Below are positions 5,987 to 19,107 of a stretch of 40,408 nt of DNA, in pieces (the first letter of the stretch is position 1; each line of letters begins with the position of its first letter). Under the pieces are notes generated by a model. That model saw only the letters and a list, made by a program, of their open reading frames with translations. It ran no database searches and was not told the origin of the DNA. The stretch comes from a virus. Taxonomy: Duplodnaviria; Heunggongvirae; Uroviricota; Caudoviricetes. The stretch spans positions 1 to 40,408 of the IMG/VR virus record IMGVR_UViG_2529292759_000002; one strand, 5' to 3'. Both the position numbers and the translations under genes were made by a program.

Positions 5987-6008
5987 TTACTTACTGAAAA
6001 CTATAGTT

Positions 6009-6593
6009 TTATTGTTTGTTTTTTTCGTTCTGGTTGATGACAAATTCAATGTAACTTTCGATCTTTGCTTTCTCGGTTTCGGGTAACAATGCGTAGCGTG
6101 AGCGGTCATAGTTGATAGTCGCAGGGTCGTGCGGGTGAATCAGTAGTTCATATCCGTGACGCCCGAATGCGGATGCAACATTCTCCAGGGTGGAAATGGA
6201 AACGCTGACCTCATTGTTTAACAGGCGGCTGATTGTCACCTGGGCGACGCCGGATGCGCGGTGAAGTTTTCCCTGTGTTGAAAGGTCGCGGCTTTCGCTC
6301 ATCCAGCGTTCCAGGTTGTGAGCCGCCAGCTGACCTATATCGCTCGGGCCGACAGGCTGAAAACCCTCCTGAGAAAGCGAACGATCAATATCAAGCCAGT
6401 TACGGGGTTTATTGGCGGCAGCTTCAATTTTTCGTGCAACCTGGTCGCCGATAACCTTCTTGCCAAGAGCCCAGCGGTTTACCAGATTTGCCTGAGTTCC
6501 AAGTTTTTCTGCCATCCGCGTCTGAACACCATTGAATTCACGGTCGATCAAGTCGTTGAGATTTTGCCTGCGGACGTCCTGGATACTTTTCAT
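6009..6593 (-). CDS. Prophage repressor candidate: tandem HTH (XRE-like) protein with no recognisable S24 autopeptidase domain
   Basis: 194 aa; two HTH-like segments (QTRMAEKLGTQANLVNRWALG and ASGVAQVTISRLLNNEV); divergent from the Cro-like gene with operator-like palindromes between; no GxSM...K signature. Confidence 0.7.
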   Translation of the reverse strand: MKSIQDVRRQNLNDLIDREFNGVQTRMAEKLGTQANLVNRWALGKKVIGDQVARKIEAAANKPRNWLDIDRSLSQEGFQPVGPSDIGQLAAHNLERWMSESRDLSTQGKLHRASGVAQVTISRLLNNEVSVSISTLENVASAFGRHGYELLIHPHDPATINYDRSRYALLPETEKAKIESYIEFVINQNEKNKQ

Positions 6594-6648
6594 TTTCTGG
6601 AAAATCGCCTCATATATGAATCAGTAGATGATTCAATTTAAAGCAATA

Positions 6649-6711
6649 TTACCCAACAGGTAAATGCACCTCATAGGTAACTATCCTTGATTTTTGTTAC
6701 CTTATGGGTGA
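6649..6711. promoter_or_regulatory. OR-like region: three 15-bp palindromic sites between the repressor and Cro-like genes
   Basis: TTACCCAACAGGTAA (6649-6663), GCACCTCATAGGTAA (6666-6680), TTACCTTATGGGTGA (6697-6711); triple arrangement resembles a lambdoid OR. Confidence 0.6.
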
Positions 6712-6747
6712 ATATTTATTATCTGAAATAAATATCAGGCAATAGCT

Positions 6748-6978
6748 ATGAGCGATAACGGACATTTCGATTTCAAAAAGCACTGGCTTGCACTTACTCC
6801 GGATGAGCGTGAAGCCTTCGCACAGGAAGCCGGAACGACGAGTCACTATATCCAGACTCACTTAACAGGTAAGCGCAAAATGCCAGGTAAAGTATTGATG
6901 AATGGGCTTTTTAAAGCCTGTAAAACAAGACAATGGTTGCGCTCAAAAGCAGAACTGGCATACTTCTTCTACTCATGA
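6748..6978 (+). CDS. Cro-like small DNA-binding protein
   Basis: 76 aa, basic; divergent from the repressor across the operator region; AGCTATG start context. Confidence 0.55.
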   Translation: MSDNGHFDFKKHWLALTPDEREAFAQEAGTTSHYIQTHLTGKRKMPGKVLMNGLFKACKTRQWLRSKAELAYFFYS

Positions 6979-7000
6979 TATCCAGCTACACCCCTCTGTA

Positions 7001-7024
7001 GACCGCCACCCGGCGGTCTTTTCA
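7001..7024 (+). terminator. Intrinsic terminator after the Cro-like gene
   Basis: GACCGCC-ACC-CGGCGGTC hairpin followed by TTTTCAT. Confidence 0.5.
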
Positions 7025-7033
7025 TATCTATTC

Positions 7034-7048
7034 GCACCTTAAAGGTAA
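7034..7048. promoter_or_regulatory. 15-bp palindromic site (GCACCTTAAAGGTAA) upstream of the replication operon
   Basis: Same left-half variant (GCACC) as the middle OR site; about 80 bp upstream of the 7129 start. Confidence 0.45.
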
Positions 7049-7128
7049 TAAAAAACCAAATATGGTTGATCTTTTTTTTGTGTCAGCACAAAATAACCGT
7101 AATCCCAATACTAATAACAGGGCTTACC

Positions 7129-7329
7129 ATGGAAATCATTACACGTATTGATGCCGCAAAGCGCGGACTTAAACGCTACTACACCGGAAAACCATGTAAG
7201 CACGGACATGACAGTGAACGCTGGGTTTACAACGGACACTGTGTTGAGTGCACCATGGAATCAAACCGTCGCATCAGGGCAGAGATTAAGCAGATCATGA
7301 TTAATTCCTCCCCACAACACTCAAGCTGA
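7129..7329 (+). CDS. Small Cys/His-rich protein in the cII-equivalent position
   Basis: 66 aa from the internal ATG at 7129; C-x-H-x-H ... C-x2-C pattern (CKHGHDSERWVYNGHCVEC); lies between the Cro-like gene and the O-like gene. Confidence 0.5.
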   Translation: MEIITRIDAAKRGLKRYYTGKPCKHGHDSERWVYNGHCVECTMESNRRIRAEIKQIMINSSPQHSS

Positions 7330-7344
7330 TAGCGGAGATTAATC

Positions 7345-8136
7345 ATGAGCAGACATGCAACAGATTGGGCCTGGGAGACAGATCCAGGTAGCTCGTCATT
7401 AAAGCTCATACTGCTCTCGATGGCTGACAGAGCCGATGAATATAACCTCTGCTACCCCAGCATAGAACGCCTCGTTAAAGACACTTGCCTGAATAAAAAA
7501 ACCGTGCAGGCCGGACTTATATCGCTCATGAAAATGGGGCTTATTTCAGATACCGGGGAGAGAAAGGGAGCGACAAAAAGAGTGCGGGTTTTCTCTCTTA
7601 ATATAACCAAAAACGGGAACATTAAAGGCAACCGAGAGGGGGGCAATGAACCCGAAAACGGTAATGTTACCGAAAACGGGAATATACCCAAAAACGGGAT
7701 GTTGAATGATCCCAAAAACGGGATCCAGAACCAGTCATATAACCAGTCATTTAACCAAGAGAGGGAGAGCAGGACAAAAAACGGGGATTCTGTGCATCAT
7801 GACCCCGGCGCAAACAACGCCGTGATGAATAACTTTGTTCCTCCTAGTGGGCCAGGGCAATTAGGCAAATTTGTCATGCATGAACAATGGCAGCCATCAG
7901 ATGACTTTCTTCGGAAAAGCTCATTGCAGGGGATCTACCTGGACAGTCTGCCAACGGCACAGGAACTTGCAGAGTTCAGAATTTACTGGATGGCTGAGGG
8001 TAAGGCATACCATCAGGCACAGTGGGAGCAGAAGCTGGCAAGGCGGCTGCAGATTAGCAGACAGAAGCAATCAACATTACCTGATAACAACGTTCCGCAC
8101 TGGAACAGCCCTGAAGCATGGGAGGATTTCTTGTGA
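7345..8136 (+). CDS. Replication initiator (O-like) with an internal iteron-encoded linker
   Basis: 263 aa; N-terminal winged-helix-like region; central repeated KNGN/ENGN peptide encoded by the DNA iterons; directly upstream of the P homologue. Confidence 0.65.
   Translation: MSRHATDWAWETDPGSSSLKLILLSMADRADEYNLCYPSIERLVKDTCLNKKTVQAGLISLMKMGLISDTGERKGATKRVRVFSLNITKNGNIKGNREGGNEPENGNVTENGNIPKNGMLNDPKNGIQNQSYNQSFNQERESRTKNGDSVHHDPGANNAVMNNFVPPSGPGQLGKFVMHEQWQPSDDFLRKSSLQGIYLDSLPTAQELAEFRIYWMAEGKAYHQAQWEQKLARRLQISRQKQSTLPDNNVPHWNSPEAWEDFL
7607..7724. repeat. Iteron array (candidate origin of replication) inside the O-like gene
   Basis: Five copies of CC(A/G)AAAACGG(G/T)A(A/T) starting near 7607, 7652, 7670, 7688 and 7712 (three at 18-bp spacing), followed by an AACCAGTCAT direct repeat. 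Confidence 0.65.
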
Positions 8137-8918
8137 ACAACGTTTTTACCGCGATACAAAACCGTGACGGAGAAGCCCTTTCTCGCATGTCAGGTTATGA
8201 GCATCAGTACACCAACAATGACAACGTGGTGAACATGTCAGCAGAGAGGCTTGTTGATGCCCTTTTCAAACAGCTGAAACAACTGTTTCCGGCGGCAGTG
8301 GTAACCAACCTGAAGACGCCAGAGCAGGAAGTTGCTGCAAAACAGCAGTGGATTGCTGCGTTTGCCGAAGGGGGGATCCGAACCCGTGAACAGGTTTCTG
8401 CTGGTATGCGCCACGCCCGCGCCAGTGAGTCTCCGTTCTGGCCGTCGCCAGGGCAATTCATCAAGTGGTGTAAAGACAGCAAGATGGTTCTTGGCGTCAC
8501 CATTGACGATGTGATGGCGGAGTTTCACCGGTACAGCAAGGAAAAAAGTTTATATCCTGGTGGTCCCGAAAGATTCCCGTGGCGACATCCGGTTATGTAC
8601 TGGGTCGTATGTGATACCCGCCGTGCAATGTATCAGCGCCAGCTTAGCGAGATTGAGGTTGAGAAACACGCGCGCAGGCTGCTCGATGATTGGGCGAAAA
8701 AGGTGGCTTCCGGACAGCAGATACCCGATCCGGTGATCAGCATACAGGCAAAGCCAGAACCCATGAGTACACCTCCGGACACAGGGAGAGACGTTTACCA
8801 TCCACCAGGGCGAAGTTTCGGGTGCATGCCTAACGCCGCCACCCTTGGGGGAATAACACCGGCGCAGTGGCTGATGGAGGAATACAGGCGGGGAAAGGCG
8901 GCAGGATTTATCAAGTAA
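8118..8918 (+). CDS. Replication protein P homologue (helicase loader)
   Basis: 266 aa; QWIAAFAEGGIRTREQVSAGMRHARASESPFWPSPGQFIKWC closely parallels recalled lambda P (QWVLAFRENGITTMEQVNAGMRVARRQNRPFLPSPGQFVAWC). Confidence 0.85.
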   Translation: MGGFLVNNVFTAIQNRDGEALSRMSGYEHQYTNNDNVVNMSAERLVDALFKQLKQLFPAAVVTNLKTPEQEVAAKQQWIAAFAEGGIRTREQVSAGMRHARASESPFWPSPGQFIKWCKDSKMVLGVTIDDVMAEFHRYSKEKSLYPGGPERFPWRHPVMYWVVCDTRRAMYQRQLSEIEVEKHARRLLDDWAKKVASGQQIPDPVISIQAKPEPMSTPPDTGRDVYHPPGRSFGCMPNAATLGGITPAQWLMEEYRRGKAAGFIK

Positions 8919-8922
8919 TACC

Positions 8923-8946
8923 AGCGCGATAGCGCATTTTTTTACG
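8923..8946 (+). terminator. Weak intrinsic terminator after the P homologue
   Basis: Short GCGC-GATA-GCGC stem followed by ATTTTTTT. Confidence 0.35.
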
Positions 8947-8955
8947 TCTCGATGA

Positions 8956-9031
8956 TTACCTACTGGGTAATAAAATATTCTAAAATCTATTGATTTAGTG
9001 TCTTATGTGGTTTTTAATTACCTCGGGGGTA
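8956..9031. promoter_or_regulatory. Pair of 15-bp palindromes (TTACCTACTGGGTAA 8956-8970; TTACCTCGGGGGTAA 9017-9031) upstream of the 9036 operon
   Basis: Two perfect sites 61 bp apart; the second overlaps the ribosome-binding region of the 9036 gene. Confidence 0.55.
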
Positions 9032-9035
9032 AATC

Positions 9036-9380
9036 ATGAGAAAACAGATACAGGCTCTTGGTCGACTCAAAACAGGCCAGATGAACAAAACAGAATCTGC
9101 GTATTGCCAGCACCTTGAGCAGCGTAAACGTGCAGGGGAAATCGCCTGGTATCGGTTCGAGGGTATCAAGCTGCGGTTAGCTGATAACACGTTTTATACG
9201 CCAGATTCCGCTGTGATGCTCGCCACCGGCGAGATGGAACTGCACGAAGTGAAAGGTTTCTGGACCGACGACGCCAGGGTGAAAACCAAAGTCGCCGCAG
9301 ATCAGTATCCGTTCCGAATCATCGGGGTAACGGTTAAGCCAAAGAAAGCAGGTGGTGGCTGGAACATCGAAGAGTTCTGA
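9036..9380 (+). CDS. Hypothetical phage protein (possibly DUF1064-like)
   Basis: 114 aa; family assignment from memory only. Confidence 0.5.
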   Translation: MRKQIQALGRLKTGQMNKTESAYCQHLEQRKRAGEIAWYRFEGIKLRLADNTFYTPDSAVMLATGEMELHEVKGFWTDDARVKTKVAADQYPFRIIGVTVKPKKAGGGWNIEEF

Positions 9381-9441
9381 ATCGACGATCTTTTTAGTTA
9401 TCAATGTAATCAATAAGTTATGTGGATAAGCGAGGGTAAAG

Positions 9442-18409: not shown

Positions 18410-19107
18410 TCATGAATTTATTTGAGCGTTTGCTGTATCGCCGTCTTTGCAATGAGCAACCAGTCGATGGTGGAGCAGCTCCTGCTGCGTCAGAACCGTC
18501 AGCGCCTGCAGGTGATAACCCTGCTCCAGTTGGTGATCCATCACAACAGGAAGGTGATAAGCCACAACCTGTTGCTGATGGCGATAAACCTGCTGATGAC
18601 AAAAAGCCTGAAAACGATAAGCAGGATGAAAAAAAGGGCGGCGATAAACCAGAGGGTGCGCCTGAGAAGTACGAGTTTCAGGCTGCCGAAGGCGTAGAGC
18701 TGGATACAGAAGCGTTGAAGGAATTCGAGCCGGTGGCGCGAGAACTAAACCTGACCAACGAGCAAGCGCAAAAGCTGGTTGATGCTTATCCGAAGATTCT
18801 GGCAGGTGTGCAGCAGCGCCAGGCAGAAGCCTGGCAGAAAACAACCGAGCAGTGGGCTGCTGATGTAAAAGCTGACAAAGAAATCGGTGGCGACAAGTTG
18901 ATTTCTAACCTTAGCGCCGCACAGCGTGCGCTTGACCAGTTCGGGACACCTGAACTCAAAGAATATCTGAACACCACCGGGCTGGGTAATCACCCTGATC
19001 TGGTCAAAACGTTCGTGAAAATCGGAAAGGCGATGTCTGAAGATGGCATGGTCACCGGTGGTAATGAAGGCCAGCGTAGTGCGGCCGAAGTGCTCTATGG
19101 CAAATAA
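18406..19107 (+). CDS. Scaffolding protein candidate
   Basis: 233 aa; Pro/Ala/Asp/Lys-rich low-complexity N-terminal half and helical C-terminus; between portal and major capsid. Confidence 0.5.
   Translation: MIMNLFERLLYRRLCNEQPVDGGAAPAASEPSAPAGDNPAPVGDPSQQEGDKPQPVADGDKPADDKKPENDKQDEKKGGDKPEGAPEKYEFQAAEGVELDTEALKEFEPVARELNLTNEQAQKLVDAYPKILAGVQQRQAEAWQKTTEQWAADVKADKEIGGDKLISNLSAAQRALDQFGTPELKEYLNTTGLGNHPDLVKTFVKIGKAMSEDGMVTGGNEGQRSAAEVLYGK

What the first reader, a model, noticed from the sequence alone, without database searches (positions are those of the whole stretch)
7600..7770. Iteron array inside the O-like replication gene is the likely origin of replication
Five copies of CC(A/G)AAAACGG(G/T)A(A/T), three of them at exact 18-bp spacing, lie within the linker-encoding part of the O-like gene and are followed by a direct repeat AACCAGTCAT x2. 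The arrangement parallels the lambda origin, where iterons bound by O lie inside the O reading frame, and the gene is followed by a clear lambda P homologue.
Basis: partly seen in the sequence, partly recalled or inferred. Interest (0 to 1): 0.5.

Follow-up and report, generated by a model that had tools for sequence, protein, structure and literature searches.

The report
Phage replication origin inside initiator gene
The repeats are real and are most likely the replication origin of a phiV10-like E. coli phage, lying inside its own initiator gene as in phage lambda; the arrangement is expected, though the initiator family is different and unstudied.

Summary
Five exact CC(A/G)AAAACGG(G/T)A(A/T) copies lie at 7607-7724 (0 expected by chance), with a degenerate sixth at 7775 and AACCAGTCAT x2 at 7729-7752. 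All fall in the part of gene 7345-8136 that encodes a predicted disordered linker.

The window is a phiV10-like (Uetakevirus) phage. The gene is not a lambda O family member. It has an HTH_36 winged-helix N-domain and a DnaT-type ssDNA-binding C-domain. A clear lambda-P homologue follows.

The repeats are constrained as DNA, not as peptide:
- Twelve of thirteen other lineages sharing the N-domain (34-63% aa identity; Gamma-, Beta-, Alphaproteobacteria hosts) carry an array at the same place, whatever their C-domain or helicase loader.
- Four relatives sharing only the DnaT domain have none.
- Copies are read in different frames within intact genes.
- The Tardiphaga relative has a different iteron.
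- A Vibrio phage keeps the origin core 85% identical, while third-codon identity in the N-domain is 29%.

Copy number varies by whole 18/24-bp units among near-identical prophages. A second conserved element, 11-13-bp GAACC repeats after the last iteron, replaces lambda's AT tract.

Origin function is inferred, not shown. I rate it a new member of a known kind, of modest interest.

The parts
7345..8136 (+). Replication initiator gene (263 aa): winged-helix N-domain, disordered linker, DnaT-type C-domain
   Evidence: ORF list. Pfam HTH_36 on aa 18-67 and DnaT on aa 176-244. PHROG 1032 'replication initiation protein', E = 3e-102. 97-99% identical to the phiV10 p43 region.
7345..7611 (+). Coding region of the N-terminal winged-helix domain (aa 1-89), the proposed iteron-binding domain
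   Evidence: AlphaFold2 block-mean pLDDT 72-91, topology H-H-H-H followed by a beta hairpin. Foldseek matches to dimeric wHTH proteins: PerR/Fur, MarR, ArsR, TubR. Always at the N-terminus in 608 representatives with E <= 1e-10.
7612..7899 (+). Coding region of the predicted disordered linker (aa 90-185), which holds all the repeats
   Evidence: pLDDT < 50 throughout this segment, 10-residue block means 27-45. No Pfam domain. Length varies among close relatives, 263-311 aa.
7603..7620 (+). Iteron 1: ATAACCAAAAACGGGAAC
7648..7665 (+). Iteron 2: GAACCCGAAAACGGTAAT
7666..7683 (+). Iteron 3: GTTACCGAAAACGGGAAT
7684..7701 (+). Iteron 4: ATACCCAAAAACGGGATG. It begins the 24-bp unit whose copy number varies among relatives.
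7708..7725 (+). Iteron 5: GATCCCAAAAACGGGATC, a perfect palindrome with 6-nt arms and two GATC sites, next to the 12-mers
   Evidence: dyad score 6 of 6.
7729..7759 (+). Second origin element: AACCAGTCATAT, AACCAGTCATTT, AACCAAG (12-bp period). Candidate unwinding or helicase-entry region.
   Evidence: Conserved as DNA in Vibrio, Edwardsiella, Pantoea, Arsenophonus, Acinetobacter, Burkholderia and Tardiphaga relatives, with 11-13-bp spacing and different reading frames. Lower GC than the gene and A >> T on the top strand.
7771..7788 (+). Degenerate sixth iteron-like copy: AGGACAAAAAACGGGGAT, on the far side of the 12-mers
   Evidence: Invariant in the close relatives aligned. Not seen in distant relatives.
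7858..8115 (+). Coding region of the DnaT-type ssDNA-binding C-domain (aa 172-257)
   Evidence: phmmer against PDB: E. coli DnaT residues 85-170 (9zbt, 6aep, 4ou6), E about 1e-20. Foldseek: 4ou6 DnaT84-153-dT10, 51% identity.
8133..8918 (+). Lambda-P-type helicase loader gene. GTG start overlapping the initiator stop; an in-frame ATG lies at 8118.
   Evidence: Pfam Phage_lambda_P, E = 1.5e-56. A 786-nt CDS is annotated at this position in phiV10, phiv142-3 and BP9.

Best explanation
The segment 7603-7788 is the phage's origin of replication, built like the lambda origin but around a different initiator.

Proposed mechanism:
1. Dimers of the initiator's N-terminal winged-helix domain bind the five or six partly palindromic iterons (core CC-R-AAAAC-GG, each with an A5 tract).
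2. They assemble a nucleoprotein complex.
3. The complex destabilises the adjacent A-rich AACCAGTCAT 12-mer repeats.
4. The DnaT-type C-domains, concentrated there by the flexible linkers, bind the exposed single strand.
5. The downstream lambda-P-like protein delivers host DnaB.

Because the sites lie in the linker-coding segment, each iteron gained or lost also adds or removes 6 or 8 residues of linker.

Shown here: the sequence anatomy, the domain identities, conservation at the DNA level, and association of the iterons with the N-domain.

Inferred by analogy with lambda O/ori-lambda and with E. coli DnaT: binding, unwinding, helicase loading and origin activity.
For: - The array is real and unique in the window.
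- The copies have dyad symmetry, and the last one is a perfect palindrome. This fits a dimeric wHTH protein.
- Twelve of thirteen other lineages sharing the N-domain at 34-63% aa identity carry an array in the equivalent position, about 270-470 nt into the gene. Eleven have cores of the CCC-AAAA(A/T)(C/T)-GGG kind (Vibrio H20 mostly as CCCGAAAACGGT): PPompW, Vibrio H20, Edwardsiella GF-2/Edno5, Acinetobacter AP22, Burkholderia Bcep176, Pantoea, Arsenophonus, Providencia, Proteus and a Salmonella remnant. The Acinetobacter ESL0695 copy, a truncated ORF, has no array.
- These relatives have different C-domains (DnaT-type, lambda-O-type, others) and different neighbours (P, DnaB-like helicase, primase/helicase).
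- Four relatives that share only the DnaT-type C-domain (SPN1S, Tyrion, TL-2011b, Rac YdaU) have no such array.
- The most distant N-domain, Tardiphaga at 34% identity, has a different iteron, ACCATGCCGCA, at 23-bp spacing, so it is read in three frames.
- Inside intact genes, one iteron is read as TQKR(D/E) and the others as PK(N/I/F)G in GF-2, PPompW, Pantoea and Providencia. Bcep176 spacings are 17 and 22 bp.
- Window versus Vibrio phage H20: the N-domain is 54% identical at the nucleotide level and 29% at third codon positions. The 49-nt origin core is 85% identical, with a 1-nt indel that changes the frame.
- GAAYC-N6-8-GAAYC follows the last iteron in 8 of 11 lineages, and the window carries a TAACC variant. 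It is absent from all four controls that share only the DnaT-type domain; lambda O has one match at an unrelated position. Background is 0.087 per kb per strand.
- Among 80 near-identical IMG/VR loci, exact-copy number ranges from 3 (a cut locus) or 4 to 9, with a mode of 6, always in whole 18- or 24-bp units. One protein cluster has 8 PKNGMLND units.
- Of 124 diverse full-length representatives of the N-domain, 98 carry two or more iteron-derived peptides after the domain, against 7 in a control stretch. Only 17 have a DnaT domain.
- A P homologue follows the gene.
- The lambda origin has the same layout: iterons and then an A-rich tract in the middle of O (PMC7466680).
- The DnaT C-terminal domain forms filaments on ssDNA (PMC13377028).
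Against: - No experiment on this phage or on any family member was found.
- The region after the iterons is only mildly AT-rich: GC 0.42 against 0.48 for the gene, compared with 0.23 in lambda. Its helix stability reaches only about the 95th-98th percentile of the window. An unwinding element is therefore not evident from composition alone.
- There is no DnaA box nearby; the nearest is at 9421.
- Homology of the N-domain to lambda O rests only on shared PHROG profiles. Direct comparisons are not significant.
- The conserved peptide QNQSLEPxIEP, found in many relatives, leaves some room for selection at the protein level on the second element.
Confidence: 0.8

Rival explanations
1. The repeats are binding sites of the initiator, but they serve autoregulation or a transcriptional roadblock in its own gene. 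The true origin lies elsewhere, for example in an AT-rich intergenic region such as 7020-7100 or 8920-9035.
For: The least stable DNA near the replication genes is intergenic: 40-bp windows starting at 7039 and 8967 are among the 15 least stable in the window. The post-iteron segment is only mildly AT-rich. The only perfect DnaA box is at 9421.
Against: No iteron copies occur outside the gene. The array and its flanking GAACC repeats keep a fixed order and orientation across distant lineages and move as one block with the N-domain. In lambda, the same layout is the origin (PMC7466680). AT-rich intergenic DNA is the usual composition of promoter and terminator regions.
Confidence: 0.1
2. The DNA repeats are a by-product of a repeated peptide (PKNG / xENG, NQSY) selected in a low-complexity linker. 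They have no role as DNA.
For: In the window all spacings are multiples of 3, and the copies translate to T/P-K/E-N-G. The linker is rich in N, G, Q and K and is predicted disordered.
Against: The same DNA motif is read in other frames within intact relatives: TQKRD versus PKNG, 17-, 22-, 23- and 35-bp spacings, and three frames in Tardiphaga. The middle residue varies (N, I, F, Y) while the CCC...GGG dyad is kept, for example CCCAAATTTGGG. The 12-mers are read as NQSY/NQSF here and as QNQS then EPVI in Vibrio H20. The origin core is 85% identical, against 29% third-position identity in the N-domain.
Confidence: 0.03
3. The array is a hypervariable minisatellite at a recombination junction between the exchangeable N- and C-terminal modules. 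It is maintained by slippage and unequal crossing-over, not by function.
For: Copy number varies from 4 to at least 12 among near-identical prophages. The mosaic junction lies here: GF-2 joins this N-domain and array to lambda-like sequence and a lambda-O C-domain. Iteron-to-iteron deletion has truncated the Proteus gene.
Against: Slippage explains the variation in number, but not retention of the same core and dyad across lineages whose N-domains are 34-63% identical. It also does not explain the conserved flanking element. Origin function and module exchange at the same site are compatible with each other.
Confidence: 0.05

Closest known systems
Origin of phage lambda and of lambdoid/Stx phages (ori-lambda within gene O, with P as loader)
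   Same: - The origin lies in the middle of the initiator gene, in the inter-domain linker-coding part.
- It has an array of 4-6 partly palindromic iterons, each containing an A-tract. Lambda: TCCCTCAAAACGAGGGA. Here: TCCCAAAAACGGGA.
- An A-rich segment follows on the same strand, in the direction of transcription.
- A P-type loader gene comes next.
- Iteron number differs between related phages: 4 in lambda, 6 in Stx phages (PMC7466680).
   Different: - The initiator does not match the lambda O family models.
- The CCC and GGG half-sites are 3 bp closer together.
- The C-domain is DnaT-type, not the lambda O C-domain.
- There is no strongly AT-rich tract: GC 0.42 against 0.23. Repeated GAACC 12-mers take its place.
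- The range of copy numbers is much wider.
Iteron origins of plasmids with winged-helix Rep initiators (e.g. RK2 TrfA, F RepE, R6K pi; named from general knowledge)
   Same: A winged-helix initiator; direct repeats of about 17-24 bp as its binding sites; and short repeats in the adjacent unwinding element. HTH_36 proteins are reported as plasmid Rep proteins in surveys found.
   Different: The origin lies inside the initiator's coding sequence. No DnaA box is adjacent. The loader is of the lambda P type. The initiator carries a DnaT-type ssDNA-binding domain.
E. coli DnaT (primosomal protein of replication restart)
   Same: The C-terminal 85 residues align with DnaT residues 85-170 at about 50% identity. 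That domain forms filaments on ssDNA (PMC13377028).
   Different: - The protein scores 85 bits against an equivalog cut-off of 201, so it is not DnaT.
- The DnaT N-domain is replaced by a sequence-specific winged helix.
- It acts, by inference, at an origin and not at abandoned forks.
- Database names such as 'primosomal protein' or 'DnaT' are therefore misleading.

Membership tests
Lambda-type origin (ori-lambda kind) | The origin lies inside the initiator gene, in the inter-domain linker-coding segment | tested here: met
   The repeats fall at codons 88-148 of 263. The N-domain ends at about aa 89, and aa 90-185 have pLDDT < 50.
Lambda-type origin (ori-lambda kind) | An array of at least 4 iterons with dyad symmetry and an internal A-tract | tested here: met
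   Five exact copies plus one degenerate copy, each with an A5 tract. Dyad scores are 2-6 of 6, and one copy is a perfect palindrome.
Lambda-type origin (ori-lambda kind) | The iterons are bound by the initiator's N-terminal domain | not testable with these tools
   Only indirect evidence: the array occurs with the N-domain and not with the C-domain, and it changes sequence with the most diverged N-domain.
Lambda-type origin (ori-lambda kind) | An AT-rich unwinding tract next to the iterons | tested here: inconclusive
   GC is 0.42 against 0.48 for the gene (lambda: 0.23). Helix stability reaches only about the 95th percentile of the window. A >> T on the top strand, as in lambda. Relatives in high-GC hosts show a clear drop: 0.33 against 0.60, and 0.45 against 0.61.
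Lambda-type origin (ori-lambda kind) | A P-type helicase loader is encoded immediately downstream | tested here: met
   Pfam Phage_lambda_P, E = 1.5e-56, with the start overlapping the initiator stop.
Lambda-type origin (ori-lambda kind) | The segment supports initiator-dependent replication | not testable with these tools
   No experimental report was found.
Lambda O protein family (Pfam Phage_rep_O / TIGR01610) | The N-terminal domain matches the family model | tested here: not met
   No Phage_rep_O or TIGR01610 hit. Lambda O scores 1e-36 and 5e-39 against the same models. BLASTP is not significant. hhalign gives probability 3.6%. The only link is indirect: PHROG 678 and 345 match both proteins over the same profile region.
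Lambda O protein family (Pfam Phage_rep_O / TIGR01610) | A lambda-O-type C-terminal (P-binding) domain | tested here: not met
   The C-domain is DnaT-type. The lambda-O-type C-domain is present in GF-2 and Edno5, fused to this N-domain.
DnaT (primosomal protein 1) | Full-length match above the NCBIfam equivalog cut-off | tested here: not met
   85.4 bits against a cut-off of 201. Only model positions 86-169 are matched.
HTH_36-type phage initiators with in-gene iterons (the grouping proposed here) | The N-terminal 'MSRxATDWAW...DTGERKGxT' winged helix is followed within about 100 codons by an iteron array and then by GAACC 11-13-mers | tested here: met
   Window. Twelve of thirteen other lineages carry the array; the GAACC repeats follow in most, with divergent forms in PPompW and Bcep176 and none in the Salmonella remnant. 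Peptide proxies are present in 98 of 124 representatives.

The most novel reading that the evidence does not exclude
This would be the first recognised example of a large, undescribed family of origin modules: 608 initiator clusters at E <= 1e-10 from phages and prophages whose sampled hosts include Gamma-, Beta- and Alphaproteobacteria.

In this reading a winged-helix N-domain, its in-gene iterons and a conserved set of GAACC 11-13-mer repeats travel together as one specificity cassette. The cassette is fused to interchangeable recruitment domains.

In the phiV10 version the recruitment domain is the filament-forming ssDNA-binding domain of DnaT. The initiator would then work like DnaA, combining a double-strand localiser with a single-strand filament former. 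The GAACC repeats would be the single-strand element that is captured.

This would give a simple phage system in which to test the DnaT/DnaA parallel proposed in 2026 (PMC13377028).
Probability: 0.3. Interest if true: 0.55.

Novelty: new member of a known kind. Interest (0 to 1): 0.36.

Why it matters
The result locates the probable origin of a prophage group present in 424 of 5,426 complete E. coli genomes, including O157:H7 and O157 typing phages. Neither the phiV10 GenBank record nor the RefSeq features under the E. coli genome matches annotate an origin there.

It also shows that the database names 'primosomal protein' and 'DnaT' for this gene are misleading.

It explains why the gene's length is hypervariable, and why the gene is often truncated or split in assemblies. 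Iteron gain and loss changes the cis site and the protein linker together.

It gives a sequence signature, iterons followed by GAACC 11-13-mers after an HTH_36 N-domain, that can be used to annotate origins in many phages.

The arrangement itself, an origin inside the initiator gene, has been known from lambda for decades, so the conceptual gain is modest.

Tried and rejected
- Direct homology to lambda O: BLASTP was not significant. hhalign of a 6-sequence N-domain profile against the lambda O N-terminus gave E = 0.012 and probability 3.6%. Only the shared PHROG profiles link the two proteins.
- DnaA boxes near the array: none. The window has two TTWTNCACA matches, at 9421 and 36674, which is below chance.
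- A strong AT-rich unwinding element: not found.
- RNA families in 6000-9200: only a sub-threshold isrG match at 8268-8343.
- The promoter and terminator scan found nothing beyond chance. It did pick up the phiV10-annotated terminator at 7000-7019. Its minus-strand 'terminator' at 7714-7695 is just the iteron palindrome.
- Literature: no paper mentions phiV10 together with iterons, HTH_36 phage iterons, or the motif itself.
- The first protein search, with the 95-aa domain alone, returned mostly truncated fragments. The full-length search returned only close relatives. The scan of viral contigs returned 80 near-identical loci, useful only for copy-number variation.
- Plasmid records as natural evidence of autonomous replication are suggestive but not reliable. 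The 41-kb circular records are whole phage genomes, and the 8.4-kb circular record comes from a single-cell assembly.
- The Salmonella locus L098 and the Acinetobacter ESL0695 locus are remnants with two iterons and no array respectively. They count for little: L098 is included among the twelve array-bearing lineages and ESL0695 is the one without an array.
Full report
**What is there**

All copies are on the + strand, at 7607, 7652, 7670, 7688 and 7712, against 0.00 expected from shuffles. Spacings are 45, 18, 18 and 24 bp. A degenerate sixth copy lies at 7775, and one-mismatch matches elsewhere are at chance level. AACCAGTCAT(A/T)T occurs twice at 7729-7752, followed by AACCAAG. Of the three tandem arrays TRF reports in the window at score >=40, these two score highest.

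Taken as 18-mers, the copies are partly palindromic. The last one, GATCCCAAAAACGGGATC at 7708-7725, is a perfect 6+6 palindrome, which 0.07% of random 18-mers of the window reach.

**Context**

The window is a phiV10-like Uetakevirus, an epsilon15-like E. coli phage. Region 7100-9000 is 97-98.6% identical to phiV10, phiv142-3, PAS61 and others.

The repeats lie in gene 7345-8136 (263 aa). Pfam finds HTH_36 at aa 18-67 and the DnaT DNA-binding domain at aa 176-244, and no Phage_rep_O. NCBIfam gives only a partial DnaT match, 85 bits against a cut-off of 201. The C-terminal 85 residues align with E. coli and Salmonella DnaT residues 85-170 at about 50% identity.

AlphaFold2 predicts a confident winged helix for aa 1-89, with 10-residue block means of pLDDT 72-91. 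For aa 90-185 pLDDT stays below 50 (block means 27-45), so this segment is predicted disordered. It is encoded by 7612-7899, so every repeat lies in linker-coding DNA.

The next gene, 8133-8918, is a clear lambda P homologue at E = 1.5e-56. Upstream lie a divergent repressor, a cro-position gene, a terminator at 7000-7019 and a small ORF, as in phiV10. The phiV10 GenBank record annotates no origin.

**Is the gene 'O-like'?**

It is O-like only by position and role. BLASTP against lambda O is not significant, and hhalign is weak. PHROG profiles 678 and 345 do match both lambda O and this protein over the same N-terminal profile region. PHROG 391 joins this kind of N-domain to the lambda-O kind of C-domain. 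A distant relationship between the DNA-binding domains is therefore plausible. The family membership test fails.

**DNA or peptide?**

In the window every spacing is a multiple of 3, and the copies translate as T/P-K/E-N-G. The window alone therefore cannot decide, but the relatives can.

- *Occurrence with the N-domain.* The array is present in twelve of thirteen other lineages that share the N-domain at 34-63% aa identity, about 270-470 nt into the gene. Eleven have cores of the CCC-AAAA(A/T)(C/T)-GGG kind, Vibrio H20 mostly as CCCGAAAACGGT. These are PPompW/Stx-associated phages, Vibrio phage H20, Edwardsiella GF-2/Edno5, Acinetobacter AP22, Burkholderia Bcep176, prophages in Pantoea, Arsenophonus, Providencia and Proteus, and a Salmonella remnant. 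The Acinetobacter ESL0695 copy, a truncated ORF, has none. These genes have DnaT-type, lambda-O-type or unrelated C-domains. They are followed by P, a DnaB-like helicase or a primase/helicase.
- *Absence without the N-domain.* Four relatives that share only the DnaT-type C-domain (SPN1S, Tyrion, TL-2011b, Rac YdaU) have no such array.
- *A different iteron in the most distant relative.* The Tardiphaga N-domain (an alphaproteobacterial host, 34% identity) comes with a different repeat, ACCATGCCGCA, spaced 23 bp. It is therefore read in three frames.
- *Different frames within intact genes.* The first iteron is read as (T/A/Y)QKR(D/E) and the later ones as PK(N/I/F)G in GF-2, PPompW, Pantoea, Arsenophonus and Providencia, where the spacing is 35 bp. 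Bcep176 uses 17- and 22-bp spacings.
- *The dyad is kept while the residue varies.* The middle residue is N, I, F or Y, but the CCC...GGG dyad stays, for example CCCAAATTTGGG.
- *Conservation beyond the protein.* Between the window and Vibrio phage H20, the N-domain coding DNA is 54% identical and only 29% identical at third codon positions. The 49-nt stretch from the last iteron through the 12-mers is 85% identical and contains a 1-nt indel.

The constraint is therefore on the DNA.

**A second element**

Right after the last iteron, the relatives carry two or three repeats with a GAAC(C) core at 11-13-bp spacing:

| Lineage | Sequence after the last iteron |
|---|---|
| Window | CAGAACCAGTCATATAACCAGTCATTTAACCAAG |
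| Vibrio H20 | CAGAACCAGTCATTAGAACCAGTCATAGAACCAAG |
| GF-2 and Pantoea | CAGAATCAGTCATTAGAACCCAACATAGAA(T/C)C |
| Tardiphaga | TAGAACCTATATTAGAACCTATAG |

Bcep176 has repeated GAACAGTAG in the same place.

The pattern GAAYC-N6-8-GAAYC follows the array in 8 of 11 lineages. The window has a TAACC variant. The pattern is absent from all four controls that share only the DnaT-type domain; lambda O has one match at an unrelated position. It occurs 0.087 times per kb per strand in the window.

The repeats are translated in two different ways: NQSY/NQSF in the window, and QNQS followed by EPxIEP in most of the others.

The 40 nt after the last iteron have lower GC than the gene in all but one lineage (AP22, 0.38 vs 0.37). 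The top strand is A-rich throughout, as in lambda.

| Lineage | GC, 40 nt after last iteron | GC, gene |
|---|---|---|
| Window | 0.42 | 0.48 |
| Bcep176 | 0.45 | 0.61 |
| Tardiphaga | 0.33 | 0.60 |
| Lambda | 0.23 | 0.48 |

By helix stability the window segment is only a mild minimum. I read it as the unwinding or helicase-entry region, but this is the weakest inferred step.

**Variation**

Close relatives differ by whole units. phiV10 and phiv142-3 have one more 24-bp unit, and phiV10 has one more 12-mer.

In 80 near-identical IMG/VR loci the number of exact copies runs from 3 (a cut locus) or 4 to 9. The mode is 6, and the window's five-copy form occurs in several loci. Protein clusters range from 263 to 311 aa, and one has eight PKNGMLND units.

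The gene occurs in 424 of 5,426 complete E. coli genomes. An exhaustive search finds 608 N-domain representatives at E <= 1e-10. Of 124 full-length representatives, all have HTH_36 and only 17 have the DnaT domain. Ninety-eight carry at least two iteron-derived peptides just after the domain, against 7 in a control stretch.

**Mechanism**

By analogy with lambda, the origin sits in the middle of O as iterons plus an A-rich tract, and O also binds the single-stranded tract (PMC7466680). The proposed steps are:

1. Dimers of the winged-helix domain bind the iterons.
2. The complex opens the adjacent 12-mer region.
3. The P-like protein brings in DnaB.

The C-domain is homologous to the part of DnaT that forms filaments on ssDNA (PMC13377028). 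It may therefore hold the opened strand, though it could instead simply be the contact for the loader. Nothing here distinguishes the two. The GAACC repeats travel with the N-domain and not with the C-domain, which argues against their being specific to the DnaT-type domain.

**Verdict**

This is a well-supported, unannotated origin of a known kind, a lambda-like in-gene iteron origin, in a different initiator family. Function remains inferred.

Noticed in passing
L097 2501-3170 (Proteus mirabilis prophage); proteins P0001, P0002: In Proteus all three iterons are in the TQKR frame and the ORF stops at 120 aa, just after them. The C-terminal part continues in another frame. This looks like an iteron-to-iteron deletion between copies that sat in different frames; compare the intact Providencia gene (L105). 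Many database entries of this gene are fragments of 97-158 aa ending in the array (62 and 48 member sequences). The array therefore also seems to break ORF calls or assemblies.
   Followed up: partly
L009 1868-1960 (Edwardsiella phage GF-2) versus L006 1160-1200 (lambda): The GF-2/Edno5 initiator is a hybrid. It has this N-domain, the iterons and the GAACC repeats. It then continues with lambda-like DNA from the right side of ori-lambda (GAGAATTCTGACGAATCCTCAGAC against lambda GAGAATTCTGGCGAATCCTCTGAC) and a lambda-O C-domain followed by P. The module junction therefore lies inside the origin.
   Followed up: partly
GenBank PP488543.1 (Escherichia phage BP9, 138 kb, Vequintavirus) 134192-137092; PP350014.1 (phage PH444, 115 kb): Two records much larger than a 39-41 kb Uetakevirus genome (BP9 is filed as Vequintavirus; PH444 is unannotated) contain this replication module at 98.6% and 97% identity. 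In BP9 it sits at the very end of the record. These are possibly chimeric assemblies or prophage contamination.
   Followed up: no
NZ_CP148379.1 (L101, 8,461-bp circular E. coli record); NZ_CP079771.1 and NZ_CP079768.1 (41,027-bp circular records): The 8.4-kb circular record holds dicA-like, cro-like and ydaT genes, a PPompW-type initiator with in-gene iterons, a short 'replication protein P' and some prophage cargo. This is reminiscent of a lambda-dv mini-replicon, but it comes from a single-cell assembly. The 41-kb 'plasmids' are whole phiV10-like genomes.
   Followed up: partly
L012, L013, L015 and window 7858-8918: The DnaT-type C-domain is paired with different partners: a P-like loader (window, Tyrion), a gene named ydaV and annotated 'putative replication protein' (Rac YdaU), or no adjacent loader gene (SPN1S, where DUF1064 follows directly). 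What this domain contacts is therefore unclear.
   Followed up: partly
window 7129-7329 (+): A small ORF of 66 aa lies just upstream of the initiator. It has a C-x-H...C-x2-C pattern (KPCKHGHDSERWVYNGHCVECT) and no Pfam match. It is conserved in position in phiV10 (p42) and relatives. A Salmonella relative (L098) has a zf-C4_ClpX ORF two genes upstream of its initiator, with an HNH gene between.
   Followed up: no
window 9421-9429 (-): The only perfect DnaA box (TTATCCACA) in the window lies in the short gap between the DUF1064 gene and the next gene, about 1.7 kb downstream of the iterons.
   Followed up: no
window 18573-18610: The only other tandem repeat in the window: TGCTGATGACAAAAAACC, 2.1 copies, period 18.
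   Followed up: no
window 7709-7712 and 7722-7725; the 24-bp units of phiV10 and GF-2: Each 24-bp iteron unit carries a GATC (Dam) site, and the last iteron carries two. The same holds in Edwardsiella GF-2 but not in Vibrio H20. A link to methylation or SeqA was not examined.
   Followed up: no
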